From the IMG/VR virus record IMGVR_UViG_3300033070_000552, positions 24,799 to 88,798 of that record: a DNA stretch of 64,000 nt. One strand, written 5' to 3'. The notes beneath the pieces are model-generated. The model had not been told where the DNA came from. It did no database searches and saw only the letters and a program-made list of their open reading frames with translations. Positions within the stretch are counted from its first letter, which is position 1. Each line of letters begins with the position of its first letter. This DNA comes from a virus (taxonomy: Duplodnaviria > Caudoviricetes). This document shows positions 2,296 through 62,379 of this stretch, one piece after another. A program made the position numbers and the translations under genes.

Positions 2296-2849
2296 GCTAG
2301 ACGTTCCCGCGAGAGATTAATCAAAGCCCCGGTGATCCGATCGCACGCGACGTAGACGTACCGCTCGCGAACGCGCCCAAACATAGCCATGCCCTTGATC
2401 ACGTCGCCGCATTTGATTCGCTCCCACCTGATCGTCAGCGTGAGTTTGAGCGTGTCGGCGTCGGGCACGACCTCCCACACGTTGTCGTGGCCGCCCACTG
2501 TGCCCGGGGGTAGCGGCCTAACAATCGCCCGCACGTCGCCGGACCTCTCGCCGTTTGCGGAGTAAATGTACGTCCCGGGCTTGGGCGGCTTGGACTTGAA
2601 GCTGGGGAGGTTGGACGATGGGTCGCGGTGGATCTCGTCGCTCGACTCGGGCGCGTCGAACTGCTTGCCGCACTTGTCGCAGACGTAGATCGGGAACTGC
2701 TCGCCCGGCACGCCCGAGGCGACAGCGACGATGTTCCCGGCGTAGACCTTGCCATCGCGGGATGGTTTCTTGTACGAGCCCCCGGCCATGTCGCACGGGT
2801 CGATCTTGTGGTGCCCGTAAACGGTCGGCGACTTCGCGGGCTGGCTCAC
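2292..2849 (-). CDS. hypothetical protein with CxxC (about 185 aa)
   Basis: 3' part of track ORF 2292..3041; GTG 2849 overlaps the exonuclease stop (GTGA); contains YVCDKCGKQF. Confidence 0.6.
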   Translation of the reverse strand: MSQPAKSPTVYGHHKIDPCDMAGGSYKKPSRDGKVYAGNIVAVASGVPGEQFPIYVCDKCGKQFDAPESSDEIHRDPSSNLPSFKSKPPKPGTYIYSANGERSGDVRAIVRPLPPGTVGGHDNVWEVVPDADTLKLTLTIRWERIKCGDVIKGMAMFGRVRERYVYVACDRITGALINLSRERLA

Positions 2850-3901
2850 ACAAACCCCATCGGTCTGAGCACGGTCTCGCACGTCTCGGCGGCGAACCCG
2901 TAGGTGCCCCGAAGCACGCGGGTGGCGTTCGCGAACGAGATCCGACGCTGGCAGTTGGCGATAGTGCCGACGATCGTTCGAGCGGCGGCGCTGGCGGCGG
3001 TTCCGCCCGACCACGCGGCGAGATCCATCTGCGAACGGCAAATTCGCGAGAGCGTGAACGAGAGGTTCGCGGCCTCGACGTTATTGGCAAGAGCCACGTC
3101 GACCGCGTAGGGCTTGGGCTTGGTGATCCGATCGCGGGCGTAGTCGATCGCGGCCATAAGCGAGCCGTGGGCCCCGATATAGGCCGACGCGGTTTTCTCG
3201 CCGAACTTGGGGACGCCGGGGATATTGTCGCCGGTGGCGGGCTCGCCCACCAACGCTTTCCAGTCGACGTACCGATCGGGCGTGAACGGGAATTGAGAGG
3301 CGAACTCCTCGGGGCCGACGAGCTTCTTAGAGACACCTCGCCACACCGAGACGTTGGGGCCGACGAGTTGATAGAAGTCCTTGTCGTCGGAGACGATGAT
3401 CGTTCGCGATGTCATGTTCGCGAGGGCCGTGCCGATCAGATCGTCGGCCTCGAACTGGTTGTGATAGACCTCGGGGAGCCCCAGGTGTTTCACGCCCTTG
3501 ATCGCGACCTCCATCGCGGCCTTGGTGCGCAGGGCCTCGGCGATCTCGTCGTCGGTCTTGGCGGCGTCCTGCCTGAGCTTGTACCCGGGGTGGACCTTCC
3601 GCTTGTTCTCGACGCCGCCGTCCCAAAAGAGCACGAATCGGTTGGTCCGAAAGATCGAGCAGCACGTCGCGACGATCTCAAGGAACCCGTGCAGGCCCCG
3701 CGTGTCCTCGCCGGTGGGGGAGGTAAGGCCGTCGCGGGTGTGGATCGCCCGGTAGACCGCATGGCGGGCGTCGAAGAACAGGGTCGTCTCGTTGACCGGC
3801 CACTCGGCGGTCTTGAGCTTGATCTCGCGGAAAGGGTCCTCGGCCTCGGGGAGGTGAACCTCGCCGAAGTCAACCTGGCGGGACGATGCGGTCTGGGTCA
3901 T
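2846..3901 (-). CDS. 5'-3' exonuclease / flap endonuclease (Pol I N-terminal, T4 RNase H-like)
   Basis: FWDGG...HPGYK, EADDLIGT, SDDKDFYQL, LVGE..GDNIPGVPKFGEKTA motifs. Confidence 0.93.
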   Translation of the reverse strand: MTQTASSRQVDFGEVHLPEAEDPFREIKLKTAEWPVNETTLFFDARHAVYRAIHTRDGLTSPTGEDTRGLHGFLEIVATCCSIFRTNRFVLFWDGGVENKRKVHPGYKLRQDAAKTDDEIAEALRTKAAMEVAIKGVKHLGLPEVYHNQFEADDLIGTALANMTSRTIIVSDDKDFYQLVGPNVSVWRGVSKKLVGPEEFASQFPFTPDRYVDWKALVGEPATGDNIPGVPKFGEKTASAYIGAHGSLMAAIDYARDRITKPKPYAVDVALANNVEAANLSFTLSRICRSQMDLAAWSGGTAASAAARTIVGTIANCQRRISFANATRVLRGTYGFAAETCETVLRPMGFV

Positions 3902-3922
3902 GGGCTGGCCTCGCTGGATATT

Positions 3923-4114
3923 TCATGGTGAAATAAAGGGGATGGTTTCGGGCTCCGGTCGATATCGCAGGGGTGTCGGGGTGGACTTGAATGGAAGGCG
4001 GGCGGTGACGACCCGCCGTGGGTTGGTGCTCCTTCGATCCGGCATCCGGGAATCGAACCCTTCTTCCATCACGATATCTACGCGCCACACGGGTGGTAAT
4101 TTCGATTCGGCCAC
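3923..4114 (-). CDS. hypothetical protein (63 aa)
   Basis: GTG-start ORF whose stop lies inside a palindromic motif. Confidence 0.4.
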   Translation of the reverse strand: MAESKLPPVWRVDIVMEEGFDSRMPDRRSTNPRRVVTARLPFKSTPTPLRYRPEPETIPFISP

Positions 4115-4366
4115 CCGCCTTCAATGGTCCCCGATCACCCGTCGATGATCGAGCCCCAACAGTCCTCCGCGTCGGCGAACCGGCGCTACGTCTTGTTCCT
4201 GTCCCCGAAACTACGACCTCGGTTATCTATCACGGGCTCGCCTGATTGCTCGGTGAGCTTGCGCGACACTTGACGAGATCCAGACGTTTCACCCTCGGGG
4301 TTGGCGGGGTGGGGGCTTTGCGGACCCCTCTGGACTGCGATAGACGTTCCCGCGAGCGGCGATCCC

Positions 4367-4403
4367 AAAAATGAAAGAATGCCCGGGGGAGGCCCTGGGC
4401 ATT
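4367..4403 (-). terminator. intrinsic terminator downstream of the tRNAs
   Basis: Minus strand AATGCCCAGGG-loop-CCCCGGGCATT followed by CTTTCATTTTT. Confidence 0.7.
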
Positions 4404-4445
4404 AAAGATCGGCTTTGAATCCGCCGACAGGAGTTGGTGCTGTAA

Positions 4446-4517
4446 TTGCGGGGCTTGGATTCGAACCAAGGACCATCGGATTATGAGACCGATATTCTGC
4501 CGCTGAACTACCCCGCA
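4446..4517 (-). tRNA. tRNA with CAT anticodon (elongator Met or Ile2); CCA not encoded
   Basis: TGCGGGG/CCCCGCA acceptor, GTTC/GAAT D stem, loop CT-CAT-AA, T arm CTTGG-TTCGAAT-CCAAG. Lacks initiator features. Confidence 0.9.
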
Positions 4518-4518
4518 A

Positions 4519-4592
4519 TGCGAAGGGGAGGACTCGAACTTCCGGCCTTCGGGCTTTTACACCCGACGCTCTACCAACTGAGCTACCTTCGC
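4519..4592 (-). tRNA. tRNA-like gene with atypical 8-nt anticodon loop (identity undetermined)
   Basis: GCGAAGG/CCTTCGC acceptor, GCTC-AGTTGGTA-GAGC D arm, TCGGG-TGTAAAAG-CCCGA anticodon arm, GGAAG-TTCGAGT-CCTCC T arm. Confidence 0.8.
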
Positions 4593-4713
4593 ACAAAGAC
4601 CCGGATCGACAATGTGGTTTTCGAGACTTCAATAACCGTGTAGTCCCGCGAGGCATTCGATCCGAGACGCCAGAATAATACCCGGGAATTCGGGCGAGTC
4701 TAGTTTGGCTGAA

Positions 4714-7186: not shown

Positions 7187-7201
7187 GCGAGACGTTCCCG
7201 C

Positions 7202-7441
7202 CTACGCCCTGTGCCGCATGCGGTTCGGCTCGATCGCGGGAGCGGGCTCGCTTTCGGTAGCCCACACCTCGACGGTCGATGCCCGGTTGCCGCAGGCGAT
7301 ACACGAGCGGCGTCGACGGATCGTCCGCCCCGACTTTGAGGGTCTGGAGTTGACGACGGTCGTGATCCCGCCGCACTGTGGACATGGCATCGATTGCGGG
7401 TTCTTCCGCATCCTGGGGGTTGTGATAATGGTGTCGCTCAT
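7202..7441 (-). CDS. NrdR-like zinc-ribbon protein lacking the ATP-cone
   Basis: MPCPQCGG.TTVVNSRP...RTIRRRRSCIACGNRASTVE matches the NrdR N-terminal pattern (CP.C...V.DSR....IRRRR.C..C..RF.T.E). Confidence 0.75.
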   Translation of the reverse strand: MSDTIITTPRMRKNPQSMPCPQCGGITTVVNSRPSKSGRTIRRRRSCIACGNRASTVEVWATESEPAPAIEPNRMRHRA

Positions 7442-7998
7442 GATGTCATTGCGTCGAGGTAAACGTGCAGCGCGTCGCGGATCATCTCGTCCCGCCCGTC
7501 CAAGAGGGCGGCGATCCCGACCTTGGCAAGCTCGCTGAACCTCGCGCCCTGGAGCTTGCCGTCGGATGTCATTACCCGGGCGGCCGAGACCGCACCAGAC
7601 GGATCGACGACCGAGTTAATCGCGGTGCGGAGAAACCCCTCCATGAACAACCGGAGCCGCAGCGCCCGATAGTCCGCGAGAAGCTCGTCGGGAGGGTTGA
7701 TCGAAACGATCGACTCAAGCTCGTCCCGAAGTGATGTCATGTGCGCGGTCACGAGGTTCTCGGTTGGGTCGAGAACGACCGCCCCGCCCGATACCTTCCC
7801 GAGCGACGACGACGGCCGCTTGCCGTCGAGGTACGTCATCATCCTGCCCACGATCGGGACCATGAGCCGTCCCGACGACTTAAGCGTGTACGCCCGCTCG
7901 TACGCCGGGTGCTTGACCCGTGGTCCGGGTCCGCAGTCGGTGGCGGTCTTAAGCGGGAGGGGGAATACCGGGGGATGATTTGCGGTGCTTGGAATCAT
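7438..7998 (-). CDS. hypothetical protein (186 aa)
   Basis: ATG 3 nt after CGGGAACGTCT; ATGA coupling to next gene. Confidence 0.65.
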   Translation of the reverse strand: MIPSTANHPPVFPLPLKTATDCGPGPRVKHPAYERAYTLKSSGRLMVPIVGRMMTYLDGKRPSSSLGKVSGGAVVLDPTENLVTAHMTSLRDELESIVSINPPDELLADYRALRLRLFMEGFLRTAINSVVDPSGAVSAARVMTSDGKLQGARFSELAKVGIAALLDGRDEMIRDALHVYLDAMTS

Positions 7999-8320
7999 GC
8001 GAGACGTTCCCGGGAGGGAGTTCCTTGCGTGGTCGCGGATCGGGGATCTGCTCGTCGGGCCCGAGGAGGATATTCCGGGTGAGGTAGAACGGAGTCGAGA
8101 TCAGGGCCTTGACCACAACGACCGCCTCGGACCCAAACCTCCGCTCGATCGCTTGATATGTCGACTCGCGGGTCTTGGGCCTGATGAACTCGTCCGAGAA
8201 CCGGCAGGCGTCGAAGCCGAGGGTGGAGGAGAGGTACTTCCGCACGTCGATCTTGAAAGCGTCCTGAAACCGAGCCGCGAGGCTCTGGTGGTGGAATGGG
8301 CATCGGGCGATGTTGGTCAT
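7949..8320 (-). CDS. hypothetical protein
   Basis: 123-aa ORF in the gene run; overlaps the next gene by 50 nt. Confidence 0.5.
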   Translation of the reverse strand: MTNIARCPFHHQSLAARFQDAFKIDVRKYLSSTLGFDACRFSDEFIRPKTRESTYQAIERRFGSEAVVVVKALISTPFYLTRNILLGPDEQIPDPRPRKELPPGNVSHDSKHRKSSPGIPPPA

Positions 8321-8323
8321 GGG

Positions 8324-8608
8324 TCACCACCTCGCCCATGAACGGAAGGTGTCGGCCATCCGTTGCATCCACCGGATCTCGGCCTGGGGCGAGAGAACCT
8401 TCGAGGCCCCAAGGCTCGTCGCGATGTAGGCCCGCCGATCGGGTCGACCACCGCAGTCCTGAACGAGCCCGAGTTTCTCCGCTCGATAGAGCGTGTCGCG
8501 GAACCGCTTGCCGACCGTCCATCGATACTCGTTGATCTCGATGTACCCCTTCTGGAGAAGGATGCGGACCACGTCCTCGACGGCGAGTTCTTTCCGCTTG
8601 GTGTTCAT
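8324..8608 (-). CDS. hypothetical protein (94 aa)
   Basis: MNTKRKELAVEDVV... ATG 8608 overlaps the upstream TGA. Confidence 0.55.
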   Translation of the reverse strand: MNTKRKELAVEDVVRILLQKGYIEINEYRWTVGKRFRDTLYRAEKLGLVQDCGGRPDRRAYIATSLGASKVLSPQAEIRWMQRMADTFRSWARW

Positions 8609-8883
8609 ACTCCAAGCTCCTTCCGTTTGGCGTCCCACGCCTCGTCGGTCGGTACGTCGATGAACCCCATCGAGGCGAACACACGAAGCTGAATATCGCG
8701 AGCCCCTCGACACAACCGCTTGCCCTCGGGCCATCCCGATGAGTGGCACATCTGCGAGGCATCGGAGAGAATCCGCTTGGTGACCGACGCGGCGACATCC
8801 TGGCACCCGCCGTCGGCGAACGGGCACGTCTTGCACTTGGTTGGCATGACTGGGGTCTTGGATATGTCGTACCGCTTGGACAT
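8605..8883 (-). CDS. small Cys-rich protein
   Basis: CKTCPF...MCHS...RLCRG; ATG 4 nt after CGGGAACGTCT. Confidence 0.65.
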   Translation of the reverse strand: MSKRYDISKTPVMPTKCKTCPFADGGCQDVAASVTKRILSDASQMCHSSGWPEGKRLCRGARDIQLRVFASMGFIDVPTDEAWDAKRKELGV

Positions 8884-8928
8884 CGACAGACGTTCCCGTG
8901 ATCGGACCTCCGATATTTCATGGTGAAA

Positions 8929-9990: not shown

Positions 9991-10213
9991 ACGAGACGTT
10001 CCCGATCGCGAGGCTCCACCGATATTTCATGGTGAAATATCCGACCCCGACTTCCCCTCTCTCAATACCCATATCCCGCGCGGCGTGCGCCTTAAGATTC
10101 CCGCGAAACCGATTCTCAAATCGCCGATTCGGGAAATCTGGTGAAAATAGATCAGATTTTTGAAGATTCTTGGGGTTTATTTCGCCATGAAATAAAACGA
10201 CCCCCTGTTCGGG

Positions 10214-26009: not shown

Positions 26010-26744
26010 TCATGGTGAAATAACCCGGAATGGCCGACCCGGCATCCTTCGGCCCGAGGGCTTGTACCCGGGGGAGGCGGCCCCCGAAACGACCGCGATC
26101 TCCCTGAACAGCCCCTCGATCTTCACGAGCCTCTGCCGGATGTACTCCCGCGTGAACCCGAGCGAGTTGCCGACTTGTTCGAGCGTCCGTCCGCTCAACC
26201 TTCCGACGACGATGAGATACTCGATATCGTCCAGCGAGTCCATGATCGCGTGAACCGCCTGCCGCTCGATCGGCGAAAGAGGCTCAGGCGTTTCCGATCG
26301 GTCTACGAGCTGCGAGGCCCGGTCCCACTTGGCGATTTTGCCGTACGGATCGCTCAGCGATTGAACGTACCCGGTCCTTCGCATGATCTCCGCCGTTTGC
26401 TCGGGCATCTGGTGGAAGTCGACGACCCCGCGAATCAGCCTGTCGTTTCGTCTCCGCATACGAACGAGCCAGTGGGGCAGGAAGTTGAACGCGGCGGTCT
26501 TTGGGTCGCACGAGCCGTCGTACTTCGAGAGGCGGTCGCCGACGTACTCGAATGCATAAGACACGTACTCGTCGGCCCGGTCCCCGCAGCACTTCCCGCA
26601 GTGGAACCGGATCAGGCCGATATGTCGCTCGATGAATGCGTTGCGGGCCTGGGTGTCGCCCCTGGAGGCGGCCTCGGCAAGATCGCGATCGGTGCGGGGA
26701 TCGGCGGATCGCTTGGGGTCCTGAACGTAACGGATATTTGACAT
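26010..26744 (-). CDS. RNA polymerase sigma-70-family factor
   Basis: Region 2-like GDTQARNAFIERHIGLI and region 4 HTH GRTLEQVGNSLGFTREYIRQ. Confidence 0.85.
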   Translation of the reverse strand: MSNIRYVQDPKRSADPRTDRDLAEAASRGDTQARNAFIERHIGLIRFHCGKCCGDRADEYVSYAFEYVGDRLSKYDGSCDPKTAAFNFLPHWLVRMRRRNDRLIRGVVDFHQMPEQTAEIMRRTGYVQSLSDPYGKIAKWDRASQLVDRSETPEPLSPIERQAVHAIMDSLDDIEYLIVVGRLSGRTLEQVGNSLGFTREYIRQRLVKIEGLFREIAVVSGAASPGYKPSGRRMPGRPFRVISP

Positions 26745-26777
26745 TCTGGAGACGTTCCCGTTGATAGATCGGCAAGG

Positions 26778-28010: not shown

Positions 28011-29951
28011 TCAAACACCGCCAGCCTTACCTCGGCCTCGCTTGGTTCTGCCCGAGGTGGCCCCTGCGGTGGTTGGCTGTCCGCTTGCCCCGTCGGTCTG
28101 GGGGGCTGTTCCACTCCCAGAATTTTTCCCAGAGTTTGGAGTAGTCCCATTGGTCTTTTCCTTGGTGGCCGGTCCCGAACCGATCCCGGTGTCGCTGGCG
28201 GTCGGGATATCTCCGCTCTCGCCTCCATCCTCCATCGGCTGGCCCGTGAGAGGATCGATCGGCCCCGTCGGCTCGGGGTGGGTATCCATCGCGTCGCAAA
28301 GCTCGCCCGCAAGCTCCTCGGGGATGCCAAGGGCGGCGATGAGCATGTCGGGCGTGAGCGACGACTCCCGCTTCATGCCCATGAGCGACTCGGTGATCGT
28401 CGGCGACGTATCGAACATCGCGTCCACGTCGTCCACGTACTCCTTGTGCGGGCCGAACGGGTCGATCTTCTGCGAGAGGGCGATCGCTAAACGCCGCTTG
28501 AGCCGTGGGGGAATGAACGAGGCCGATGAAAGCTCGGAGTTCTGCGCGATCAGATCGTCGATCGTGAACACGTCGAACTGCCGGTTGTAGTGGGTCCGCT
28601 TGTGCGTGTCGTCCCCGGGGTAAATCTCCATCGCCACGAGCAGCTTGTTCTCGACGACCTCGACGGTCTCGGCGATCTTGGTGAGCAGCGTGTAGAGGGC
28701 TTCGAGGTCCCGCTTCTTCTTCTCGGCGCTCTCGGCGACGTTCTTCCCCATCGGCGACATCGAGACAAGCTCGAAGATCGCATTCTTGATCTCGTCGCGG
28801 CGGGACATGAGCGACGCGGCCTGCGACGGATCGCCCGCAATGATCCCGACCTTCGAGTTGGGGTTGGGCAGCACCATCGTGTTTCCAGCACCCTTGTCCG
28901 AGCCCGTGATGTTCTCGGCGGTCTCGCCGGTGATGTACCGCTGCGAGAAGGTGTTCTGGTAAAGTTCCTCGTCGAGTACCGACCCGAGGTTGAAGTGCTG
29001 GCGGTTGAGGTCGGCGATGTCCTTGGACGGGAACGGGAAGATCACGCGGAAGAACGGGCATTGCCCGAATAGATGATCGCCCCGCCCGACCTCGATAAGC
29101 CTCTGCTCGTTCTTCTCGGTCACGATCAGCCGGTAGAGCACCCAGTTCGTTTGTGTCCACTCGCGGTAGTAGATTTGGGTGATCGGCGGCGAGGTGATCG
29201 ATCCCTTGGTGACGACGGTTTCCTCGATCACGACCCGGACGATCTCGCCGCCCGACTCCTCAAAGTCGGCGACGCACCTTGGATCGATCCTCACGATGTA
29301 CGGCCTGCCCTTGTGCTTGGGGTCGACCTTGTTGATCTGCGCGGCCGTCATCTTGGTCTTGCCGTCGGTCGCGAGAATGTTCGCGGCGTCGTACCCAATC
29401 CACGCCTCGGTGTACTTGAGCCCGTCGAGGGTCATCTCGTCGATGTTTTTGTCGAGTTCGATCCGCTCGATCTCGGCGACGATCGCTTCGTCCTCGGGCC
29501 GCACGGGATCGACCCCGAGCACGTAGCTCCAGAACTTGTCGATGATCGGCTTGACGAAATTGACATAGCTCGCCATGCGAAGACGGCGGGAATACTTCTC
29601 GGTCTTGAGCGTGGACTCGGACTTGTTGACGATCTGCGACGCGGTGGGAACGGCCTTGGCGGCGAGGAACGGATCGGCCCGCTCGTTCTCGTGCTCGATG
29701 AGGATCATCTGGCCCTTGTAGTCGGCGGCGAGTCGGTACATGGGGCCGCCGACGTACGAGGCGTCGAGGAAGTTGAACATGAGCTTGCGATCCCGGAGGT
29801 TCTCAAGCGGGAACATCGGGTAGCCGATATCGGTAAAGACCGGGGTCGGCGACGATGGGGCCGCGTCGGGCTTGGAGTTGCCTGGCGATGGGGACATCGC
29901 GGGATTGAACGGGGGCGAGAAGCTCGTGAGGTTCGCGGTGCGAGTTGCCAT
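28011..29951 (-). CDS. portal protein
   Basis: 646 aa between terminase and gp7-like gene; YSRRLRMASYVNFVKPII; acidic tail. Confidence 0.8.
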   Translation of the reverse strand: MATRTANLTSFSPPFNPAMSPSPGNSKPDAAPSSPTPVFTDIGYPMFPLENLRDRKLMFNFLDASYVGGPMYRLAADYKGQMILIEHENERADPFLAAKAVPTASQIVNKSESTLKTEKYSRRLRMASYVNFVKPIIDKFWSYVLGVDPVRPEDEAIVAEIERIELDKNIDEMTLDGLKYTEAWIGYDAANILATDGKTKMTAAQINKVDPKHKGRPYIVRIDPRCVADFEESGGEIVRVVIEETVVTKGSITSPPITQIYYREWTQTNWVLYRLIVTEKNEQRLIEVGRGDHLFGQCPFFRVIFPFPSKDIADLNRQHFNLGSVLDEELYQNTFSQRYITGETAENITGSDKGAGNTMVLPNPNSKVGIIAGDPSQAASLMSRRDEIKNAIFELVSMSPMGKNVAESAEKKKRDLEALYTLLTKIAETVEVVENKLLVAMEIYPGDDTHKRTHYNRQFDVFTIDDLIAQNSELSSASFIPPRLKRRLAIALSQKIDPFGPHKEYVDDVDAMFDTSPTITESLMGMKRESSLTPDMLIAALGIPEELAGELCDAMDTHPEPTGPIDPLTGQPMEDGGESGDIPTASDTGIGSGPATKEKTNGTTPNSGKNSGSGTAPQTDGASGQPTTAGATSGRTKRGRGKAGGV

Positions 29952-29981
29952 GCGATCATCATAGCAACCGGCGAGATTCCG

Positions 29982-30539
29982 TCATCGATTGAAGAGTCGC
30001 CCGCAGTCCTGGCACAGATATCGTCCGCTCGAAACGCCCTGATTGGCGACCTCGGTGGCGTGAACATGAAGGCACGGAGGATGGTCTACCTCCTTGGCGA
30101 TTTCCCGCGCGGACTCAACGTCGTTCTTTGGCTTGCCCTGGATGAAGTCGGGAATCGGCCCTTGGACCAACACACCCTTCGGTTCGGTGATCGGATTGCG
30201 ATGCTCGTTCATCGCCGTAACGGCGTGGGCGAGGCAGTTGCGAAGGTTGTTGGCGGTGAACCGGCGTTCCTCCCAATTCGTCCAGCTTCCCGTAACGATG
30301 ATCGACTCGTTGTTCTTTCCGTTGCCCTCGGGATTCTGGCACAGGAAAGTGATCGACGATCCATCTTCCTCGCGAAGCATATCGATCGCCATAGCGATAT
30401 GGGCCATACGGAGAAGCGGCTGGAGGACCTCGGCCGCTTCGAGATGCAAAAGCGATCCGGGCTTGTCGCCGTGTGCCTTGAGGTCGTTGATGAGTTGTTG
30501 GAAGTTGTTCGAGATGTCGGCGAACGATGGATATGGCAC
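29982..30539 (-). CDS. hypothetical protein
   Basis: GTG 30539 with SD GGAGA; C-terminal CxxC. Confidence 0.55.
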   Translation of the reverse strand: MPYPSFADISNNFQQLINDLKAHGDKPGSLLHLEAAEVLQPLLRMAHIAMAIDMLREEDGSSITFLCQNPEGNGKNNESIIVTGSWTNWEERRFTANNLRNCLAHAVTAMNEHRNPITEPKGVLVQGPIPDFIQGKPKNDVESAREIAKEVDHPPCLHVHATEVANQGVSSGRYLCQDCGRLFNR

Positions 30540-30802: not shown

Positions 30803-30908
30803 GGAGGTGTATCTCAAAAGTCGATCGGCCGTTCGCGAGTCGCTCGCACCGATCGATGGTTCCACCGAGCCACCAAGCTCGTTGACGGGAGACGTTCCCG
30901 CCACTGGA

Positions 30909-31649: not shown

Positions 31650-31691
31650 TTCTCCGTGCCCACGACCGCCGGGAGACGTTCCCCCACCGCC

Positions 31692-40824: not shown

Positions 40825-40934
40825 GGGTCTATGTCCTTGGGGAATGGGCCGGGGGAGTGGCGATATTTCATGGTGAAATATCGGGTCTGGGATCGGGTTT
40901 ATTTCATGGTGAAATATCGGGCCCTGGAACGGCC

Positions 40935-44113: not shown

Positions 44114-44122
44114 TGGTGAATC

Positions 44123-44567: not shown

Positions 44568-45451
44568 GGGGTGACTCCCTTCGTGGCGAAGTCGGCGCGG
44601 ACGGCGGCGACGTCGGATTCAAGGTCGTGACGCAAGAGTGGGTGATCGCCGTTTGCCTTCAACGCACGCATGATGAATGTGACGTTTCGCAGTAGTTCCT
44701 CCACACTTTTCGGCATCGTCGGCTTTGCGTCGGCCAGCTTGCGGAGGCGGGCGATGAAACCCTTGTGAACGTCGGGTGTTGGTCCGTAGTACCAGCGGTC
44801 CATTTCATCCGCGATCTTGCCCACGCTGTCGGCTTCGGGCTGTGGGGCGGCGTTGAAAGATCGACCAATCATCTCCAAACGTTGTGTTTCGGTCGGAAGA
44901 GGCTTGCATGAGAAGGAACACGCCCCGTAGGGGTCAATACCCCTTTGGCAAGTTGCACACCGCAGTATCTCGCGGACGGGCTTCGGGGCGGGCTTGGCGT
45001 CCTTGCTCGGGTATTCGTGACCATTCTCGCATCGGTCATTTCCGTTGAGCCGTCGCTCGCGGACGTATCCCTTGGCTCCGCACTTCGGGCAGAACCCGTA
45101 GACGTTCCCCGCCTCGATGGGCTTCGGTTCCGCCTTCACCGCCTTGAACGCCGCGATGAACGCGCGGAGGGTGGCGATGACGCGGAAAGTCTTCGATCTC
45201 CCACAACACAATGGAATGCTCTCCCCTCGAATGATGCACAAATACCATTCGTTCACCACCCTAGTTTCAACGTCATACCTTCGTTCGTCGCACCAGTCGC
45301 GCACGCGGGCTTCGATGTGGTCTTGGCATTCGTCGTATGTGTGCCATCCTTCATATCTCGCACATGCGCCGCCCCCCCGTGACCGCATGAGTCCTGGCCA
45401 CAGTGCCGCCGCCTCTTCGATGAGGGTTTTCAGTTCGTCCGTGTCTGTCAT
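44564..45451 (-). CDS. hypothetical protein with Zn-finger-like CPKC and CATC motifs
   Basis: MTDTDELKTL...; SD AAGGA. Confidence 0.6.
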   Translation of the reverse strand: MTDTDELKTLIEEAAALWPGLMRSRGGGACARYEGWHTYDECQDHIEARVRDWCDERRYDVETRVVNEWYLCIIRGESIPLCCGRSKTFRVIATLRAFIAAFKAVKAEPKPIEAGNVYGFCPKCGAKGYVRERRLNGNDRCENGHEYPSKDAKPAPKPVREILRCATCQRGIDPYGACSFSCKPLPTETQRLEMIGRSFNAAPQPEADSVGKIADEMDRWYYGPTPDVHKGFIARLRKLADAKPTMPKSVEELLRNVTFIMRALKANGDHPLLRHDLESDVAAVRADFATKGVTP

Positions 45452-45471
45452 TTGGTCCTTTCGGCTGGTGG

Positions 45472-46268: not shown

Positions 46269-46468
46269 CGCTTGCTCCTTGCTAGCACGAACGGCACCGC
46301 TCGCCAGTCGCGGACGCCCTTGAACGCAATGTCGTTGTTGTATCTGGCGTTGGGCAACGCCTCTAGTTTGCTCCACTTCGCGGCGTAGTCCTTGTCAAAC
46401 CCCTTCGTCGGACTCCATACCGCCCACAGCCTCGGTGGCTTCTTGGTCACTGGCTTCTTGGTGGTCAT
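46265..46468 (-). CDS. small basic hypothetical protein
   Basis: MTTKKPVTKK...; SD GGAGG. Confidence 0.5.
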   Translation of the reverse strand: MTTKKPVTKKPPRLWAVWSPTKGFDKDYAAKWSKLEALPNARYNNDIAFKGVRDWRAVPFVLARSKR

Positions 46469-46646
46469 CGCTTTCCCTCCAAATATGGTCGGTACGCCGT
46501 CATCCATCTCGCGCCGCACGCGAGGCATTGCCAGTGGGTCCACGTCACGAGTCCGCGAACGGCTTGGTGTACGGCGACCCGCACGACGCGAGCATGGGTG
46601 TGTGGGCAGGTTACGGGTCGCTCCTTTCGCCGAAGATCCGTTTATT

Positions 46647-47718: not shown

Positions 47719-47965
47719 GCGAGACGTTCCCGTCGGTCGCCTTGGGGACTTTCTTCAGCAGTCGCACCCTCGGGTCTTTCACGAGCGACTCCAGCGTGTG
47801 CTGGGTGTCGTCGGTGCCGTCGTCCCACCTGATCACGATGTGGGTGAGGTCCATGTCGAGCCCGGCGTGGTGCTTAACCTCCTCGGAGACGATCGCGCCG
47901 CCGTAGGTCTTGCCGTCCTCGGTCCACTCGATCCTGCGACCGGCCTGGGTGTTCTTCGTCGTCAT
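47639..47965 (-). CDS. hypothetical protein
   Basis: SD GGAG; overlaps the next gene by 80 nt. Confidence 0.5.
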   Translation of the reverse strand: MTTKNTQAGRRIEWTEDGKTYGGAIVSEEVKHHAGLDMDLTHIVIRWDDGTDDTQHTLESLVKDPRVRLLKKVPKATDGNVSHAQYHQETPFDRVPGQAIRRHQGRHP

Positions 47966-49153: not shown

Positions 49154-49195
49154 GGCTCCTGTACCGATATGATACAGTCTATCGGCGGGAAGTCC
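49154..49195 (-). promoter_or_regulatory. sigma70-like promoter overlapped by CCGATA-N10-TATCGG inverted repeat (copy A)
   Basis: TGGACT-N16-TATCAT; 24-bp core identical to the copy at 61430. Confidence 0.7.
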
Positions 49196-49260
49196 AGCCG
49201 ATATCCCTGCGATATCGACAATTTCTTTCGACCCCCATCTGGTAGGGATCGGGTAGGTAT

Positions 49261-52775: not shown

Positions 52776-52805
52776 GCGAGACGTTCCCGTACGTTTGCGA
52801 GCCGA

Positions 52806-55064: not shown

Positions 55065-56039
55065 TCAGAACGTTCCCGCCCACGCGGGCATCGTCTCGGG
55101 TGTGCAGATCGCCTTCCACGCCCACTCGTGGAGGTCGAGCCCGGCGATCACCTTGGGATCGACCCTGCCGATGAGCTTCGCCACCGCGTAGGCTTGCCAA
55201 GCGACCTCCGCGAGATCGACGAGCTTCCGACCATCGCCGAACGGATATTTCCACGCGGAGTCGGGAATCTTCTCGTAGTGCTCGCCCTGATCGCGGAGCG
55301 TCCAATCGTACTTGTGGTTGAGCGGTCCGGGCTGCGACTCGTCGCGGTCGGGGAACTTCATACGTTCGACGATCTTGTAGTACGCCGCCTTGGCCCCGAG
55401 CCGCTGGAGCGATGCGTACTGGAGGTGGAAGACCCCCGAGAGCGACGACCGGGTTTCAAGGTTGGTTCGCTGGGCGATCCCCTTGGGCGGGCGGTTGTGG
55501 TAGCAGTACCCGTCGGCGGCGTTCTGCCACGAGAGAGAGGGGTCGTCGCCAAAGGCGAGCGTGATCCGGGCCGACGCGAACACCCCATCGGTGCGGGCGA
55601 AGTCGAGGCACGTCCCGCCCTTCGATGCACCGTGATGCGGCGAGACCATCGGGACTTCGAGTGTCTCGCACGGCTTGAGCTTGAGAACTGTTCCGAGAAT
55701 ATCGGCGATGAGGTCGGCGGTCACGGCCTCGTCGGCGTCGACGATCGCGATATGGGTGGCGTTGAGTTCGCGGGCGCGGGCGAGAAGCCGTTGCCGCATG
55801 TTCATCTCGTCCCATGTCTCGTCGGTAAGAGCGAGCACGTCGATCCTACTGGAGATCGTTGGGTCGGATTCGAGCAACCTGGCGATGATCTTCCACGTCG
55901 GGTCGAGAGCTTTGCCCCCGGGCTCGTGGAGGCCGATCACGATCTCGTCGCACCATTCAAGGGCGGCGTGAATAGCAAGCTCGATGGACCATTGGTCGAG
56001 GCGGGCGAGAAGGGTGGCGACGATTTTGGGTGATGGCAT
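55065..56039 (-). CDS. glycosyltransferase family 2-like protein
   Basis: WCDEIVIG, WDEMNMRQRLL, IAIVDADE, VFHLQY. Confidence 0.75.
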   Translation of the reverse strand: MPSPKIVATLLARLDQWSIELAIHAALEWCDEIVIGLHEPGGKALDPTWKIIARLLESDPTISSRIDVLALTDETWDEMNMRQRLLARARELNATHIAIVDADEAVTADLIADILGTVLKLKPCETLEVPMVSPHHGASKGGTCLDFARTDGVFASARITLAFGDDPSLSWQNAADGYCYHNRPPKGIAQRTNLETRSSLSGVFHLQYASLQRLGAKAAYYKIVERMKFPDRDESQPGPLNHKYDWTLRDQGEHYEKIPDSAWKYPFGDGRKLVDLAEVAWQAYAVAKLIGRVDPKVIAGLDLHEWAWKAICTPETMPAWAGTF

Positions 56040-58034: not shown

Positions 58035-58075
58035 CGGGTCACTCCGTTATTTCATGGTGAAATATGGTCGGGCCT

Positions 58076-58314
58076 CTACCTGGACGTAGATGATTGGTTT
58101 GCGATCATCGCGGCCCACTGATCGGCGGGGACCATCACGACATCGATCACCTCGCCCCGAGGTCCGTCGACCTTGGGGCCAAACCTCGCCTCGCGAAAGG
58201 GCTCGGCCTCCATCGCCGTTGAAAACCCGCACCGGTACATCGTGCCGTCGGGGAACCGAACGGCGTGCAGTCGCACGGCGGTGTCGGCGGGTGGGGGGTC
58301 GGGGTGTTGCTCAT
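58076..58314 (-). CDS. small protein; motif-led ATG needs a -1 shift in a C6 run to reach the GC3-rich frame
   Basis: ATG 58314 lies 3 nt after CGGGAACGTCT; track ORF 58076..58276 is in the -1 frame. Confidence 0.45.
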
Positions 58315-58336
58315 GCGAGACGTTCCCGCGACCCGC

Positions 58337-58992: not shown

Positions 58993-59100
58993 GGCTGATA
59001 TCCCTGCGATATGGGATGGGAGGTCGGGGGTTTCGGCAATCCGCCCGCGACCCCGGTGGGGTATCGCGGACAGAGGATTTTTCAGAATGGACCACCGTAG

Positions 59101-59154
59101 TTAGCCTTTGACCGGAGGGATCGTGGGCTTTTTCGGTTTGGGCTTCTTTGCCAT
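59101..59154 (-). CDS. 17-aa basic peptide MAKKPKPKKPTIPPVKG
   Basis: SD AAAGGA 8 nt before ATG; below the track length cutoff. Confidence 0.4.
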   Translation of the reverse strand: MAKKPKPKKPTIPPVKG

Positions 59155-59277
59155 GTGGCGATTCCTTTCCGACGGAATGAACGTTCGGTTTGAGTCGGTC
59201 AACGTGTGTGGTTTATCGCATAGGTGGCCTCCTTGTGTGTGGTGTATCGCCTGGATGTCTGAGACGTTCCCGTGAGT

Positions 59278-59574: not shown

Positions 59575-59594
59575 TGCTGGATCTCCTTGAAAGT

Positions 59595-60714: not shown

Positions 60715-60972
60715 TCACTCGGCGAGGAACTCGGTCACCTCGTCGATCTCTTTGTTGCTGATGAACGCGACCGTCTCGATCATGTTCTTTCGGACAAGGT
60801 CGAGGTCCCCGACGTGCCCCCATCCGTTCGGCGCGGCCCCGGCCTTCTCGGCGTGCTTGTCGAGTTCCATCTGCAGCACATCCATCAGGCGGGCGATGTC
60901 GTTCTGCCTCGCGGCGTAGGTCTCGGCGGCGGTGGGTTCGGGCTTGGTGGTCTTCGGGGTGCGCTTCGTCAT
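60715..60972 (-). CDS. small helical early-type protein
   Basis: AAGGAGCACGACC-ATG. Confidence 0.7.
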   Translation of the reverse strand: MTKRTPKTTKPEPTAAETYAARQNDIARLMDVLQMELDKHAEKAGAAPNGWGHVGDLDLVRKNMIETVAFISNKEIDEVTEFLAE

Positions 60973-61011
60973 GGTCGTGCTCCTTTGGGTTGGTGGTCTC
61001 TGGTAAACAGC

Positions 61012-61034
61012 GAAGCCCGCATTACGCGGGCTTC
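61012..61034. terminator. perfect GC hairpin between early genes
   Basis: GAAGCCCGC-ATTAC-GCGGGCTTC. Confidence 0.5.
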
Positions 61035-61383
61035 AGGTCGTCGGGTGGTTGTCGTTCTTGCGGTCCCAACTCGTCGTGTCTTTCGGCTGGCCAACCGCCC
61101 GGAGGTAGTCGACCAACTCGTCGGCGGCCCAGGTGTCGCCGTCGATCGCGTCGTGCTCGTTGGGGGTGTCGGTATCCCGGTCGATCTCGAAGAGGCGGAA
61201 GCCGCCGAGCGCTCCGGGGCGTGGGCCCCAGTGCCCGTCGAGGTGGCGGCCGCGTCCTGCGGGGACCGTCGCGATGTTCCAGGTGCGGCCGTCGGGCGTG
61301 TGGATCTCAATCGCGGGGATGTGGAACCCGCTCTTGGCGAGGGTCTTGGCGAGGTCGAGCGTGGTCTTCGTGGTCGCGTTCAT
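61033..61383 (-). CDS. small early-type protein
   Basis: CAGGAGCACGAAC-ATG; first gene after promoter copy B. Confidence 0.7.
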   Translation of the reverse strand: MNATTKTTLDLAKTLAKSGFHIPAIEIHTPDGRTWNIATVPAGRGRHLDGHWGPRPGALGGFRLFEIDRDTDTPNEHDAIDGDTWAADELVDYLRAVGQPKDTTSWDRKNDNHPTT

Positions 61384-61429
61384 GTTCGTGCTCCTGGGGG
61401 TCTGGTCTTGGGGATCTCGATCCCCACAC

Positions 61430-61470
61430 CGATATGATACAGTCTATCGGCGAGATGTCCACCCCTTGAC
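61430..61470 (-). promoter_or_regulatory. sigma70-like promoter overlapped by CCGATA-N10-TATCGG inverted repeat (copy B)
   Basis: TGGACA-N16-TATCAT; core identical to copy A. Confidence 0.7.
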
Positions 61471-61633
61471 CTAATTTCATGGTGAAATAAACGAGATTTC
61501 TTTCGGAACAATCTGGTAGGGGTCCGGTAGCCTTTCCCGGGGCCGCCAGGGGCCGCCAGGGGCCGCCGTACGGGGCCGGGGGCCCGGACGGGCGGTTACC
61601 CAACCCCGGAGCCCAAACCCCACCCGGGCGATC

Positions 61634-62329
61634 CTAGTGGGCGGCGTCCCGCATCCGGCGGCTGGCCTGCCGGTGGACGATCGCCGGGTCGGCCACGTCA
61701 GGCATGAGATCGGGGATGCAGACAAACCGGGGGTCGAGTTGACCGACCTTGAGCCCGCGTTGCTCGTGCTCGGCCAACACCCGCCCGAGCACATCCTGAT
61801 CGAGGTCCAGGGGCGATGATCGCTGGGCGGCGACCCACGCATCGAGCAGATCGGCAACCGCCTGGCGATCGCGTCGAAAGAGAATCGTTCCCGAGAGGCA
61901 CGCGGAGTTCACAAGCGGCCAACGGCGGCGCTGATCGGGGTCGGGCCGCAAGACCGCGATGTCATATTGGGCGGCGAGGCTATCGATCGGAGAGAGATCC
62001 GCACGCACACCGATCTCCGCATCGGCATCGAGCCAAAGCATCGGCGAGGCGTGGTCGTCGAACCGCTCGCGAAGATACTCGGGCTTGATCGCGCAGTTGG
62101 CGACCCACGATCCGCGAGAGGGCCGGGCCTCGACGCGGTAGTTGGTATGGAAGGACGGGAACCCGATACGCGAGTGGAGCGATCGCAGAAGGTGCGCGTC
62201 CATCACTTCGCGGTACTGCGGGGTGTAGAACGAGACGACCTGGAGCAAGTAGGGGCCGGGCGAGATGATCGACACCGTACCGTCGGGATTAGGGCGTAGC
62301 GACGAATGAACCGAATGGGGAATGGGCAT
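61634..62329 (-). CDS. nucleotide-diphospho-sugar transferase-like protein
   Basis: VVSFYT, SWVANCAIKP, MLWLDADA (DXD), LSGTILF, LDQDVL; ATG 3 nt after CGGGAACGTCT. Confidence 0.75.
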   Translation of the reverse strand: MPIPHSVHSSLRPNPDGTVSIISPGPYLLQVVSFYTPQYREVMDAHLLRSLHSRIGFPSFHTNYRVEARPSRGSWVANCAIKPEYLRERFDDHASPMLWLDADAEIGVRADLSPIDSLAAQYDIAVLRPDPDQRRRWPLVNSACLSGTILFRRDRQAVADLLDAWVAAQRSSPLDLDQDVLGRVLAEHEQRGLKVGQLDPRFVCIPDLMPDVADPAIVHRQASRRMRDAAH

Positions 62330-62379
62330 GGGAGACGTTCCCGGCATTCGCCCAATCCCAAGCGGATCAACGTCAGGGC

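What the first reader, a model, noticed from the sequence alone, without database searches (positions are those of the whole stretch)
2299..62343. Start-associated motif CGGGAACGTCT: probable phage-specific promoter for leaderless mRNAs
Seen: 15 copies, all in the transcription direction. Eleven lie 3-6 nt before an ATG (typically CGGGAACGTCTCGC-ATG) with no room for an SD. Of the four not followed by an ATG, two lead into a leader with its own SD (31674 GGAGA; 59262 AAGGAGG), one precedes a distant start (30890) and one precedes a structured non-coding stretch (4342). Inference: this behaves as a DNA promoter element rather than an RBS. The GAACGT-to-ATG distance of 5-8 nt matches -10-to-TSS spacing, and no conserved -35 is visible, as for single-element late promoters such as T4 TATAAATA. 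It also resembles a fused ECF-like GGAAC/CGTC. Analogy: start-associated sequences of cluster K mycobacteriophages.
Basis: partly seen in the sequence, partly recalled or inferred. Interest (0 to 1): 0.85.

Follow-up and report, generated by a model that had tools for sequence, protein, structure and literature searches.

The report
Phage promoter motif for leaderless genes
An uncultivated 88.8-kb phage carries 22 identical copies of an 11-base motif, most just before start codons with no ribosome-binding site; it is most likely a phage-specific promoter giving leaderless mRNAs, a known kind of device in a new sequence form.

Summary
CGGGAACGTCT occurs 13 times exactly in the window, plus two GGGGAACGTCT copies, all on the coding (-) strand (0.18 expected). 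The whole 88.8-kb phage has 22 copies and none on the other strand. The 45100 copy is intragenic and probably chance.

The promoter reading is the best supported, but only indirectly:
- Seven intergenic copies have no adjacent ATG; six precede leaders or a distant start and one a non-coding stretch.
- Two copies follow intrinsic terminators.
- The base at motif+4, which is the A of ATG in 'CGC ATG' copies, is a purine in 21 of 22.
- The geometry matches host-type TATGAT-N6-ATG leaderless starts elsewhere in this genome.
- There is no anti-SD complementarity, and upstream genes end too far away for translational coupling.
- Two paralogous genes become alike exactly at the motif.

No -35 element and no ECF-type bipartite arrangement exist. 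The phage encodes one divergent sigma-70-family protein and no RNA polymerase. Its link to the motif is uncertain: it keeps a region 4, and its own gene sits behind a motif copy. No relatives could be reached and there are no transcript data. I rate it a new variant of known single-element phage promoters.

The parts
62333..62343 (-). Motif copy; CCC then ATG 62329 (231-aa glycosyltransferase-like gene, no SD)
   Evidence: the paralog comparison shows similarity starting exactly at the motif
59262..59272 (-). Motif copy with no adjacent ATG; about 270-nt leader with a 2-codon mini-ORF behind AAGGAGG and a 17-codon ORF, then gene start 58992
58318..58328 (-). Motif copy; CGC then ATG 58314 (55-codon frame of odd composition; a nearby C-run could join it to ORF 58076-58336)
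55067..55078 (-). Probable degenerate copy with a 1-nt insertion (CGGGAACGTTCT), GAGCC, then ATG 55061 of an SD-less 154-aa gene
52779..52789 (-). Motif copy; CGC then ATG 52775 (NAD-dependent epimerase). The start is forced: it is the first start codon of the ORF and the Rossmann domain begins at residue 22
47722..47732 (-). Motif copy; CGC then ATG 47718 (110-aa unknown); lies inside the 3' part of the upstream ORF
45100..45110 (-). GGGGAACGTCT variant inside a zinc-ribbon coding sequence; probably chance, not counted as functional
31674..31684 (-). GGGGAACGTCT variant 10 nt after the terminase stop codon; about 21-nt leader with GGAGA, then ATG 31649
30890..30900 (-). Motif copy 11 nt after the stop of gene 30909-31649; no adjacent ATG; the next plausible start is ATG 30802, about 88 nt downstream
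26750..26760 (-). Motif copy; CCAGA then ATG 26744, the start of the sigma-like gene
26010..26744 (-). Divergent sigma-70-family protein (sigma2 domain 19-101, disordered linker, sigma4 domain 158-219); the only recognisable transcription-specificity factor of the phage and the candidate reader of the motif
9994..10004 (-). Motif copy; CGT then ATG 9990 (353-aa unknown); 223 nt after the upstream gene; parS-like palindrome 34 nt upstream
8888..8898 (-). Motif copy; GTCG then ATG 8883 (92-aa unknown); parS-like palindrome 31 nt upstream
8002..8012 (-). Motif copy; CGC then ATG 7998 (186-aa unknown); inside the 3' part of ORF 7949-8320
7190..7200 (-). Motif copy; CGC then ATG 7186 (160-aa unknown); 251 nt after the upstream gene
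4342..4352 (-). Motif copy between a terminator and a non-coding stretch of about 180 nt (4160-4338); no ATG
4367..4403 (-). Intrinsic terminator (26-nt GC-rich hairpin, -14.8 kcal/mol, then a T-run) ending about 15 nt before the 4342 motif copy, after the two tRNA genes
2299..2309 (-). Motif copy; AGC then ATG 2295 (77-aa gene just upstream of the DNA polymerase III alpha gene); lies in the last codons of the upstream ORF (ATGA overlap)
29951..29985 (-). Comparison element, not a motif copy: host-type promoter ATGACG-N16-TATGAT, N6, then the portal ATG 29951 with no SD. It shows the same -10-to-ATG geometry with a canonical -10

Best explanation
CGGGAACGTCT is the core of a phage-specific, single-element (-35-less) promoter read by the host multisubunit RNA polymerase carrying a non-housekeeping specificity factor. 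Transcription starts at the purine 4 nt after the motif, so the motif spans about -14 to -4, the region a sigma domain 2 contacts (extended -10, -10 hexamer and discriminator).

In 10 copies that purine is the A of an ATG, and in 4 more the ATG lies 1-2 nt further on. These 14 genes would therefore be made from leaderless or near-leaderless mRNAs, translated without a Shine-Dalgarno sequence. At the other intergenic copies the same start gives an ordinary leader with its own SD, or a non-coding RNA.

The regulon covers recombination and replication genes, sugar-modifying enzymes, packaging genes and the phage's own sigma gene. A separate set of canonical TTGACA/TATAAT-type promoters serves the early cassettes and the structural genes.

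Shown: the copy number, strand, positions and statistics, the absence of SD and of -35, and the existence of the sigma. Inferred: that the element acts on DNA, the transcription start position, and the leaderless translation.
For: 1. There are 22 copies against well under 1 expected, all on the coding strand. By a rough gene call that leaves 20% of the genome non-coding, 17 of 22 copies lie wholly in non-coding DNA.
2. 14 of 22 copies have an ATG at +3..+5 (p = 3e-16). These genes have no SD, whereas 64 other genes have AAGGA, AGGAG or GGAGG at 4-13 nt. For the epimerase and the sigma gene, this ATG is the first start codon of the ORF.
3. Seven intergenic copies lack an adjacent ATG yet sit upstream of genes with leaders of about 21-270 nt, or of a non-coding stretch. 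A translation signal cannot explain these.
4. Two of about six strong intergenic terminators are followed by the motif, 24-25 nt after the start of the T-run.
5. The base at motif+4 is a purine in 21 of 22 copies (p = 6e-6).
6. The geometry is the same as host-type -10 hexamers placed directly before SD-less ATGs in this genome: TATGAT-N6-ATG at the portal gene and one other gene, and TANNNT at -13/-12 at three more. It also matches the -10 motif about 6-7 bp upstream of ORFs described in Deinococcus (PMC12340547).
7. Pairing with the anti-SD is -4.3 kcal/mol, no better than the shuffled-motif mean of -4.05.
8. The upstream gene ends 21-685 nt before the ATG, or overlaps it by 50-80 nt, in 13 of 14 cases, so translational coupling cannot supply ribosomes.
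9. Two paralogous genes are unrelated upstream and become alike exactly at the first base of the motif.
10. There is a precedent: the phiEco32 gp36 sigma reads a single conserved element tAATGTAtA with the start 6-8 bp downstream (PMC8948821).
11. No phage RNA polymerase was found, and there is one sigma-70-family gene.
Against: - There is no transcript 5'-end data of any kind.
- There is no comparative support.
- The putative -10 region (GGAACG) is GC-rich, which is unusual for a region that must melt.
- The only candidate reader retains a clear region 4. In the phiEco32/7-11 pair, region 4 goes with a bipartite promoter and its absence with a single-element one. Here no -35 is found at fixed or variable spacing.
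- The sigma gene is itself behind a motif copy, so its first expression needs read-through or another factor.
- Four consecutive single genes (7190-10004) each have their own copy, which is dense for promoters.
- More than 20 orientation-locked asymmetric intergenic sites is also the signature of mycobacteriophage stoperators.
Confidence: 0.6

Rival explanations
1. RNA-level start-associated element. The motif is transcribed as part of polycistronic mRNAs and is bound by a phage or host factor (protein or RNA). That factor recruits or blocks ribosomes at the adjacent SD-less AUG, as is suspected for the cluster K start-associated sequences.
For: 14 of 22 copies sit 3-5 nt before an ATG, in one orientation, in the place of the RBS. 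That is the same placement as the SAS, which lie 3-7 bp from starts, occur in 11-19 copies and favour ATG (PMC3203893). Five copies overlap the end of an upstream ORF, so they are certainly transcribed if that ORF is.
Against: Seven intergenic copies have no adjacent start codon and precede leaders with their own SD or a non-coding stretch. Two copies lie just after strong terminators, where little read-through RNA is expected. The motif has no SD core and no anti-SD pairing above shuffled controls, unlike the SAS, which contains AGGAG. The fixed purine at motif+4 also holds at copies without an ATG.
Confidence: 0.14
2. Stoperator- or operator-like DNA sites. The motif is the asymmetric binding site of a phage DNA-binding regulator that blocks or modulates transcription at many gene junctions, as the L5 repressor does at more than 20 orientation-locked 13-mers.
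For: There are 22 asymmetric copies, all oriented with transcription, mostly in short intergenic gaps. This matches the published description of stoperators (PMC9283540). The motif shows almost no degeneracy, which is more typical of a protein operator than of many sigma-type promoters.
Against: This does not explain why the adjacent genes lack SD, why the spacing to the ATG is fixed at 3 nt in 10 copies, or why motif+4 is a purine. No cognate repressor or integrase family was seen in the Pfam and PHROG scans, although the lists were truncated for one protein group. The copies that follow terminators would have nothing to stop. The genome already has another repeated element with operator character, the palindrome and the inverted repeat over the early promoters.
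Confidence: 0.1
3. RNA processing site. A sequence-specific endoribonuclease, from the phage or the host, cuts long transcripts just after the motif. The cut creates 5'-AUG ends that are then translated as leaderless mRNAs.
For: This would also explain the fixed distance to the ATG, the strand specificity, the absence of SD, and the copies inside the ends of upstream ORFs.
Against: No nuclease with such specificity was recognised among the phage proteins. The copies right after efficient terminators would rarely be transcribed. A purine preference at the first retained base is typical of initiation rather than of cleavage. The host-type -10 hexamers at the same distance from other SD-less ATGs show that this system makes leaderless mRNAs by initiation.
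Confidence: 0.05

Closest known systems
[quoted passage not shown]
   Same: One short, highly conserved element without a -35, found only in the phage genome in front of non-early genes. The host core polymerase works with a phage-encoded sigma-70-family protein. The distance from the element to the start is similar.
   Different: The sequence here is GC-rich and unrelated. gp36 lacks region 4, whereas the sigma here has one. Only six gp36 promoters are known, and they are not described as abutting start codons. Here 14 copies sit 3-5 nt before an SD-less ATG. Sigma dependence is untested here.
T4 late promoters (TATAAATA at about -10, read by gp55 with gp33 and the sliding clamp); from my own knowledge
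   Same: A single -10-region element, no -35, many copies in front of phage genes, and a phage-encoded divergent sigma.
   Different: T4 late mRNAs have leaders and SDs. The T4 element is AT-rich. gp55 has only a region-2-like part. No gp55 or gp33 homologues were found here.
-10 motif adjacent to ORFs giving leaderless mRNAs in Deinococcus-Thermus (PMC12340547); similar arrangements in Actinobacteria
   Same: A -10-type element about 6-7 bp before the start codon, no SD, and a leaderless mRNA. This phage also shows that arrangement with canonical TATGAT hexamers.
   Different: Those motifs are TANNNT-type and read by the housekeeping sigma. Here the hexamer slot holds GGAACG within an invariant 11-mer, which does not resemble any housekeeping -10.
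Start-associated sequences (SAS) of cluster K mycobacteriophages (GGGATAGGAGCCC) (PMC3203893, PMC11373665)
   Same: A short asymmetric repeat in one orientation, 11-19 copies, 3-7 bp before mostly ATG starts of non-structural genes, absent from the host, and of unproven function.
   Different: The SAS contains the SD core AGGAG, and its putative promoters lie upstream in the ESAS. Here there is no SD core, no upstream promoter-like element, and a third of the copies are not next to a start.
Stoperators of cluster A mycobacteriophages (L5 gp71 sites) (PMC9283540)
   Same: More than 20 asymmetric sites, orientation locked to transcription, in short intergenic spaces.
   Different: Stoperators are repressor sites that stop elongation, and genes next to them keep their own translation signals. 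Here the neighbouring genes lack SD and the spacing to the ATG is fixed.
ECF sigma promoters (GGAAC at -35, N16-17, CGTC at -10)
   Same: The two words GGAAC and CGTC(T) both occur in the motif.
   Different: They overlap instead of lying 16-17 bp apart. No CGTC lies 15-18 nt after the motif's GAAC at any of the 22 sites, and the genome shows no enrichment of the bipartite pattern.

Membership tests
Single-element (-35-less) phage-specific promoter class (T4 late / phiEco32 gp36 type) | A short conserved element, over-represented in the phage, oriented with transcription, upstream of transcription units | tested here: met
   22 copies against well under 1 expected, all on the coding strand, 17 of 22 in non-coding DNA, and two just after terminators
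Single-element (-35-less) phage-specific promoter class (T4 late / phiEco32 gp36 type) | No conserved -35 element | tested here: met
   No position from -50 to -1 exceeds 0.35 bit. No k-mer is enriched at variable spacing after correction for multiple tests
Single-element (-35-less) phage-specific promoter class (T4 late / phiEco32 gp36 type) | Transcription starts a few bp downstream of the element | not testable with these tools
   Only indirect evidence: a purine at motif+4 in 21 of 22 copies, and the ATG at that position
Single-element (-35-less) phage-specific promoter class (T4 late / phiEco32 gp36 type) | Dependence on a phage-encoded sigma or polymerase-modifying factor | not testable with these tools
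   One sigma-70-family gene is present. No co-occurrence test was possible because no relatives could be reached
Leaderless mRNA genes | The start codon lies at or within 1-2 nt of the transcript 5' end, with no SD | tested here: inconclusive
   The absence of SD and the forced start codons are shown. The 5' ends are not known
ECF sigma promoter | Bipartite: GGAAC-like -35 and CGTC-like -10, separated by about 16-17 bp | tested here: not met
   0 of 22 sites have CGTC 15-18 nt after the GAAC. Genome counts equal those of shuffles
Cluster K start-associated sequence (SAS) | The 13-bp sequence GGGATAGGAGCCC containing the SD core AGGAG | tested here: not met
   The motif sequence differs and has no AGGAG. 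Anti-SD duplex energy is -4.3 kcal/mol, equal to the shuffled mean
Cluster K start-associated sequence (SAS) | Virtually all copies lie within 3-7 bp of a start codon | tested here: not met
   Only 14 of 22 do. Seven intergenic copies precede leaders or an RNA-like stretch, and one copy is intragenic
Stoperator (cluster A mycobacteriophage repressor sites) | More than 20 asymmetric sites, orientation locked to transcription, in short intergenic spaces | tested here: met
   definition from PMC9283540
Stoperator (cluster A mycobacteriophage repressor sites) | A cognate immunity repressor that binds the sites and halts elongation | not testable with these tools
   No repressor family appears in the Pfam and PHROG lists. 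The lists for one protein group were truncated, and binding cannot be tested
Sigma-70 family (for ORF 26010-26744) | Region 4 (the helix-turn-helix that binds -35) | tested here: met
   PF04545 at E = 1.7e-5, above the curated cut-off. Confident helical domain at residues 158-219
Sigma-70 family (for ORF 26010-26744) | Region 2 (core binding and -10 recognition) | tested here: met
   Pfam r2 is not detected on the protein itself. However, 21 of 32 full-length homologues carry r2, their profile hits RpoS and SigA over regions 2-4 at 3e-47, the model has a confident domain at residues 19-101, and the Foldseek hits are sigma factors, the best at E = 4e-5
T7-type single-subunit RNA polymerase promoter | A phage-encoded single-subunit RNA polymerase | tested here: not met
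   No RNA_pol family appears among the families listed in the Pfam and PHROG scans of the predicted proteins; one Pfam list and one PHROG list were truncated. The only unannotated ORF of near-suitable size (717 aa) has no hit. The six-frame PF00940 search was negative, but its controls did not ring either

The most novel reading that the evidence does not exclude
The motif works on RNA. It would be a Shine-Dalgarno-independent start signal, transcribed within polycistronic mRNAs and recognised by a phage-encoded factor that places ribosomes on the AUG 3 nt downstream. That would be a new, programmable mode of bacterial translation initiation, and possibly the long-sought function of SAS-like elements. 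The copies without an ATG would then need a second role.
Probability: 0.12. Interest if true: 0.85.

Novelty: new variant of a known kind. Interest (0 to 1): 0.5.

Why it matters
If it is confirmed, this phage offers a compact 11-bp, GC-rich promoter that lacks a -35 and fixes the transcription start on the start codon. A whole regulon of at least 14 genes, covering recombination, sugar modification and its own sigma, would then be expressed as leaderless mRNAs, alongside SD-led genes driven by ordinary promoters in the same genome.

That would do three things. It would add a new specificity to the small set of known single-element phage promoters. It would raise the question of how a sigma that retains region 4, or some unknown factor, reads a promoter without a -35. 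It would also give a natural system for comparing leaderless and SD-led expression in one infection.

It also matters for annotation. Gene callers that require an RBS will misplace these starts. The finding is not a new principle: single-element phage promoters and -10-adjacent leaderless genes are both known.

Tried and rejected
1. SD substitute: rejected. The anti-SD duplex is no better than for shuffled motifs, and the invariant ACGTCT is left unexplained.
2. ECF bipartite promoter, or the motif as a -35 with a downstream -10: rejected. There is no CGTC at 15-18 nt and no conserved positions after the ATG beyond codon effects.
3. Hidden -35 or upstream activator site: none found at fixed or variable spacing. 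The parS-like palindrome lies 31-62 nt upstream at only 5 copies and is an independent 31-copy element.
4. Phage RNA polymerase (T7-like or other): none found.
5. A second sigma or a gp55-like factor: none found.
6. A third high-copy promoter class that the sigma might read instead: k-mer enrichment in intergenic DNA gives only this motif, the palindrome and the early-promoter module.
7. Translational coupling: rejected on stop-to-ATG distances.
8. Methylation, restriction, Chi-like, packaging or primase sites: rejected by reasoning, because such sites would not be confined to gene fronts at a fixed distance from ATG.
9. Comparative genomics led nowhere. The extended motif in IMG/VR, JGI metagenomes and GTDB genomes gave only single chance hits with no protein similarity to the phage. 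Sigma- and terminase-based locus searches found nothing.
10. Literature: the motif occurs only in unrelated primers and constructs.
11. Rfam for the stretch after the 4342 copy: no hit at E <= 1.
12. Host identity: not established.

Full report
**What the window is.** The window is bases 24,799-88,798 of an 88,798-bp IMG/VR virus record, rated complete by CheckV. It has 63.7% G+C, and every gene lies on the - strand by GC3 frame bias. Recognisable genes include:
- large terminase, Mu F-like protein, P22-type coat protein, tape measure protein, SNF2 helicase, 5'-3' exonuclease and DNA polymerase III alpha;
- DnaB-like helicase, primase, a RecA/UvsX-like recombinase, ParB-like proteins and several DNA methylases;
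- two GroES-like proteins and sugar-modifying enzymes.

No cultured phage is close. Terminase identity is at most 27%, and the sigma has no match in INPHARED. The host is unknown.

**Checking the observation.** CGGGAACGTCT occurs 13 times exactly in the window, always on the - strand, against 0.18 expected. Two more - strand copies begin with G instead of C, at 31674 and 45100. The whole genome holds 22 copies of GGGAACGTCT on the coding strand and none on the other. An ATG follows at +3 to +5 in 14 of 22 copies, 10 of them in the window. Only 0.71 such cases are expected (p = 3e-16). The discrepancy is the 45100 copy, which has no ATG and lies inside a zinc-ribbon coding sequence. With about 0.09 chance 10-mers expected per genome (my estimate from base frequencies), it is probably irrelevant. 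The motif is unusually sharp. Copies with 1-2 mismatches are near background, apart from a 1-nt-insertion variant (CGGGAACGTTCT-GAGCC-ATG) in front of the SD-less gene at 55061.

**Two classes of gene start.** A rough gene call gives 64 genes with AAGGA, AGGAG or GGAGG 4-13 nt before the start. It flags 12 starts behind the motif, and the direct count is 14. About 20 genes have neither signal. The genes behind the motif have no SD. For the epimerase (52775) and the sigma gene (26744), the ATG after the motif is the first start codon of the open frame. In the epimerase, the Rossmann domain begins at residue 22. The motif pairs with the canonical anti-SD at -4.3 kcal/mol, the same as shuffled versions (mean -4.05), whereas AAGGAGG gives -11.2. 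This holds within the limit that the host 16S is unknown.

**Evidence that the element acts on DNA as a promoter.**
- *Copies without an ATG.* Seven intergenic copies lack an adjacent ATG:
  - 31674 lies 10 nt after the terminase stop, with a leader of about 21 nt and GGAGA.
  - 30890 lies 11 nt after a stop codon, and the next plausible start is about 88 nt away.
  - 59262 heads a leader of about 270 nt with mini-ORFs.
  - Three copies outside the window head leaders that carry an SD.
  - 4342 precedes a non-coding stretch of about 180 nt.
- *Terminators.* Of about six convincing intergenic terminators on the sense strand, two are followed by the motif 24-25 nt after the start of the T-run. 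One is in the window at 4367-4403. The other is outside it, just upstream of the motif copy at genome 11017-11027. This is the terminator-then-promoter layout of a transcription-unit boundary. A translation signal or processing site in that position would rarely be transcribed.
- *Fixed purine.* The base 4 nt after the motif is a purine in 21 of 22 copies (A 14, G 7; p = 6e-6), including at the copies without an ATG. In the ten copies with the ATG at +3 (seven of them 'CGC ATG') that base is the A of the ATG. In the other four ATG-adjacent copies a fixed start there would leave a 1-2 nt leader.
- *Shared geometry.* The same geometry appears with canonical -10 hexamers in this genome. The portal gene and one other SD-less gene read TATGAT-N6-ATG, and three more SD-less genes have TANNNT at -13 or -12. 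With the A of ATG as +1, the motif's GGAACG fills -12..-7 and the whole 11-mer spans -14..-4. This corresponds to the -10 motif about 6-7 bp upstream of ORFs that produces leaderless mRNAs in Deinococcus (PMC12340547).
- *No coupling.* Translational coupling cannot supply ribosomes. The upstream gene ends 21-685 nt before the ATG, or overlaps it by 50-80 nt, in 13 of 14 cases; only 2295 has an ATGA overlap.
- *Paralogues.* The two paralogous genes at the genome ends are unrelated upstream of the motif. They become alike exactly at its first base, at about 87-100% identity from there on.

**What is not there.** No position between -50 and -1 is conserved. No k-mer is enriched at variable spacing after correction for multiple tests. 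There is thus no -35. The 'fused ECF' idea fails the defining test. No site has CGTC 15-18 nt after its GAAC, and the bipartite pattern is not enriched in the genome. The AT-rich parS-like palindrome (ATTTCAC-N-GTGAAAT, 31 copies) is an independent element. It lies 31-62 nt upstream of the motif at only five copies.

**A second, host-type promoter class.** A sigma-70 consensus scan finds 17 sites on the sense strand and none on the antisense strand. Shuffled intergenic sequence gives 2.4. Five of the sites are copies of one conserved module, TGGAC(A/T)-N16/17-TATCAT, with an inverted repeat over the -10. They head cassettes of small SD-led genes, which is typical of early genes. Others lie in the structural-gene block, where the motif is absent. 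The motif is concentrated in the replication and recombination arm (13 copies). Five more lie in the sugar-modification and early-cassette arm, one is intragenic at 45100, and three lie around the packaging genes and the sigma gene. The two classes interleave, as expected for a temporal programme.

**Who reads the motif.** No RNA polymerase family was found in the predicted proteins. The six-frame PF00940 search was negative, but its controls were silent too. The genome has a single sigma-like gene, 26010-26744. On its own it scores only Pfam region 4. However:
- it has 38 full-length homologues;
- of the 32 aligned, 21 carry region 2 and 29 carry region 4;
- their profile matches RpoS and SigA at 3e-47;
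- the AlphaFold model (pLDDT 78) shows a sigma2 domain, a disordered linker and a sigma4 domain;
- the Foldseek hits are sigma factors, the best at E = 4e-5, and the protein atlas places it among small sigma2+sigma4 factors.

It is therefore a real, divergent sigma. It is also the only recognisable candidate reader of the one phage-specific promoter-like motif.

Two facts weaken the link. First, in the phiEco32/7-11 pair, the sigma without region 4 reads a single element (tAATGTAtA, start 6-8 bp downstream). The sigma with region 4 reads a bipartite promoter (PMC8948821). Our sigma has region 4, yet the motif has no -35. Second, the sigma gene itself follows a motif copy. Its first expression would need read-through, for example from the host-type portal promoter about 3.2 kb upstream, or another factor. 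I put the sigma-motif link at about 0.35-0.4.

**Rival explanations.**
- *SAS-like RNA-level translation element.* This fits the ATG-adjacent copies. It does not fit the seven copies without an ATG, the copies after terminators, or the lack of an SD core. The cluster K SAS contains AGGAG (PMC3203893).
- *Stoperator-like regulator site.* This fits the copy number, the asymmetry and the orientation (PMC9283540). It does not fit the SD-less starts, the fixed spacing or the purine.
- *RNA cleavage site that creates leaderless ends.* This is possible, but no nuclease is evident, and the terminator context and the host-type leaderless promoters argue against it.

**Limits.**
- There are no transcript data.
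- Comparative genomics was impossible. The extended motif gave only single chance hits in IMG/VR, JGI metagenomes and GTDB genomes, none related to the phage.
- Protein-seeded locus searches found nothing.
- The two closest sigma homologues (93% and 42% identity) exist only on Logan contigs of 9,088 and 1,234 nt.
- The motif is not described in the searchable literature.

**Verdict.** The most likely function is a phage-specific, -35-less promoter whose start point coincides with the start codon, giving a regulon of leaderless mRNAs (confidence about 0.6). It is a new sequence variant of a known kind of device, not a member of the ECF, SAS or stoperator classes.

Noticed in passing
window 61474-61488, 58049-58063, 40865-40915, 26007-26021, 10024-10038, 8915-8929 and others (31 copies genome-wide): A parS-like AT-rich palindrome, ATTTCAC-N-GTGAAAT, lies at many gene junctions. 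It often ends ...GAAATAAAC, close to the next start. The phage encodes several ParB-like proteins, so this may be a KorB/Noc/ParB-type regulon.
   Followed up: partly
window 61434-61461 and 49169-49196 (plus three copies outside the window): Five copies of a conserved host-type promoter module, TGGAC(A/T)-N16/17-TATCAT, carry an inverted repeat CCGATA...TATCGG across the -10. They head cassettes of small SD-led genes and are probably early promoters with an operator. Three of them are preceded by the palindrome.
   Followed up: partly
window 29951-29985; also ATGs at 23313, 10867 and 25944: Host-type -10 hexamers sit directly before SD-less ATGs. The portal gene reads TATGAT-N6-ATG. TAATCT lies at -13 of ATG 23313, right after a strong terminator. 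This phage-host system therefore seems to use leaderless mRNAs from ordinary promoters too.
   Followed up: partly
window 4446-4592 (- strand): Two adjacent tRNA genes lie behind a TAGACT-N16-TATTAT promoter (4675-4702). One is tRNA-Met (CAT). The other has an enlarged or odd anticodon loop that ARAGORN cannot name, although Rfam scores it as tRNA at 60 bits.
   Followed up: no
window 4160-4338 (- strand): A non-coding, GC-rich stretch of about 180 nt starts 4 nt after the 4342 motif copy. It has no Rfam match even at E <= 1. It could be a phage small RNA whose 5' end would be set by the motif.
   Followed up: partly
window 58147-58336 (- strand): The ATG at 58314 after the motif opens a 55-codon frame with non-coding-like composition (GC2 0.80). 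A run of six C about 20 nt downstream could join it by a 1-nt indel to the well-behaved ORF 58076-58336. This may be an assembly error or a slippery site.
   Followed up: no
window 59100-59260 (- strand): The strong AAGGAGG after the 59262 motif copy serves only a 2-codon mini-ORF (ATG CGA TAA). A 17-codon lysine- and proline-rich ORF follows, and then the 121-aa arginine-rich gene at 58992. It looks like a regulatory leader.
   Followed up: no
window 61634-62329 versus genome 1-414 (L013:1-414): Paralogous glycosyltransferase-like genes lie at the two ends of the linear record, each behind a motif copy. The second runs off the end of the contig, so the record may be permuted or slightly incomplete.
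   Followed up: partly
window 44100-46650 (- strand): A block of small genes has weaker GC3 bias than the rest of the genome, and several encode zinc-ribbon (CxxC) motifs. It may be a recently acquired insert. The intragenic GGGGAACGTCT copy lies here.
   Followed up: no
L015:628-654 (genome 22627-22653, outside the window): The motif copy there is followed after 4 nt by a second, degenerate copy (CGGGAACGATT). It is the only tandem arrangement, and the only copy whose motif+4 base is a pyrimidine.
   Followed up: no
window 26010-26744 versus P0001: The 93%-identical sigma homologue from another sample differs almost only in its first ~30 residues and starts 12 codons later. The 5' end of the gene, where the motif sits, is therefore the variable part between the two phages.
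   Followed up: no
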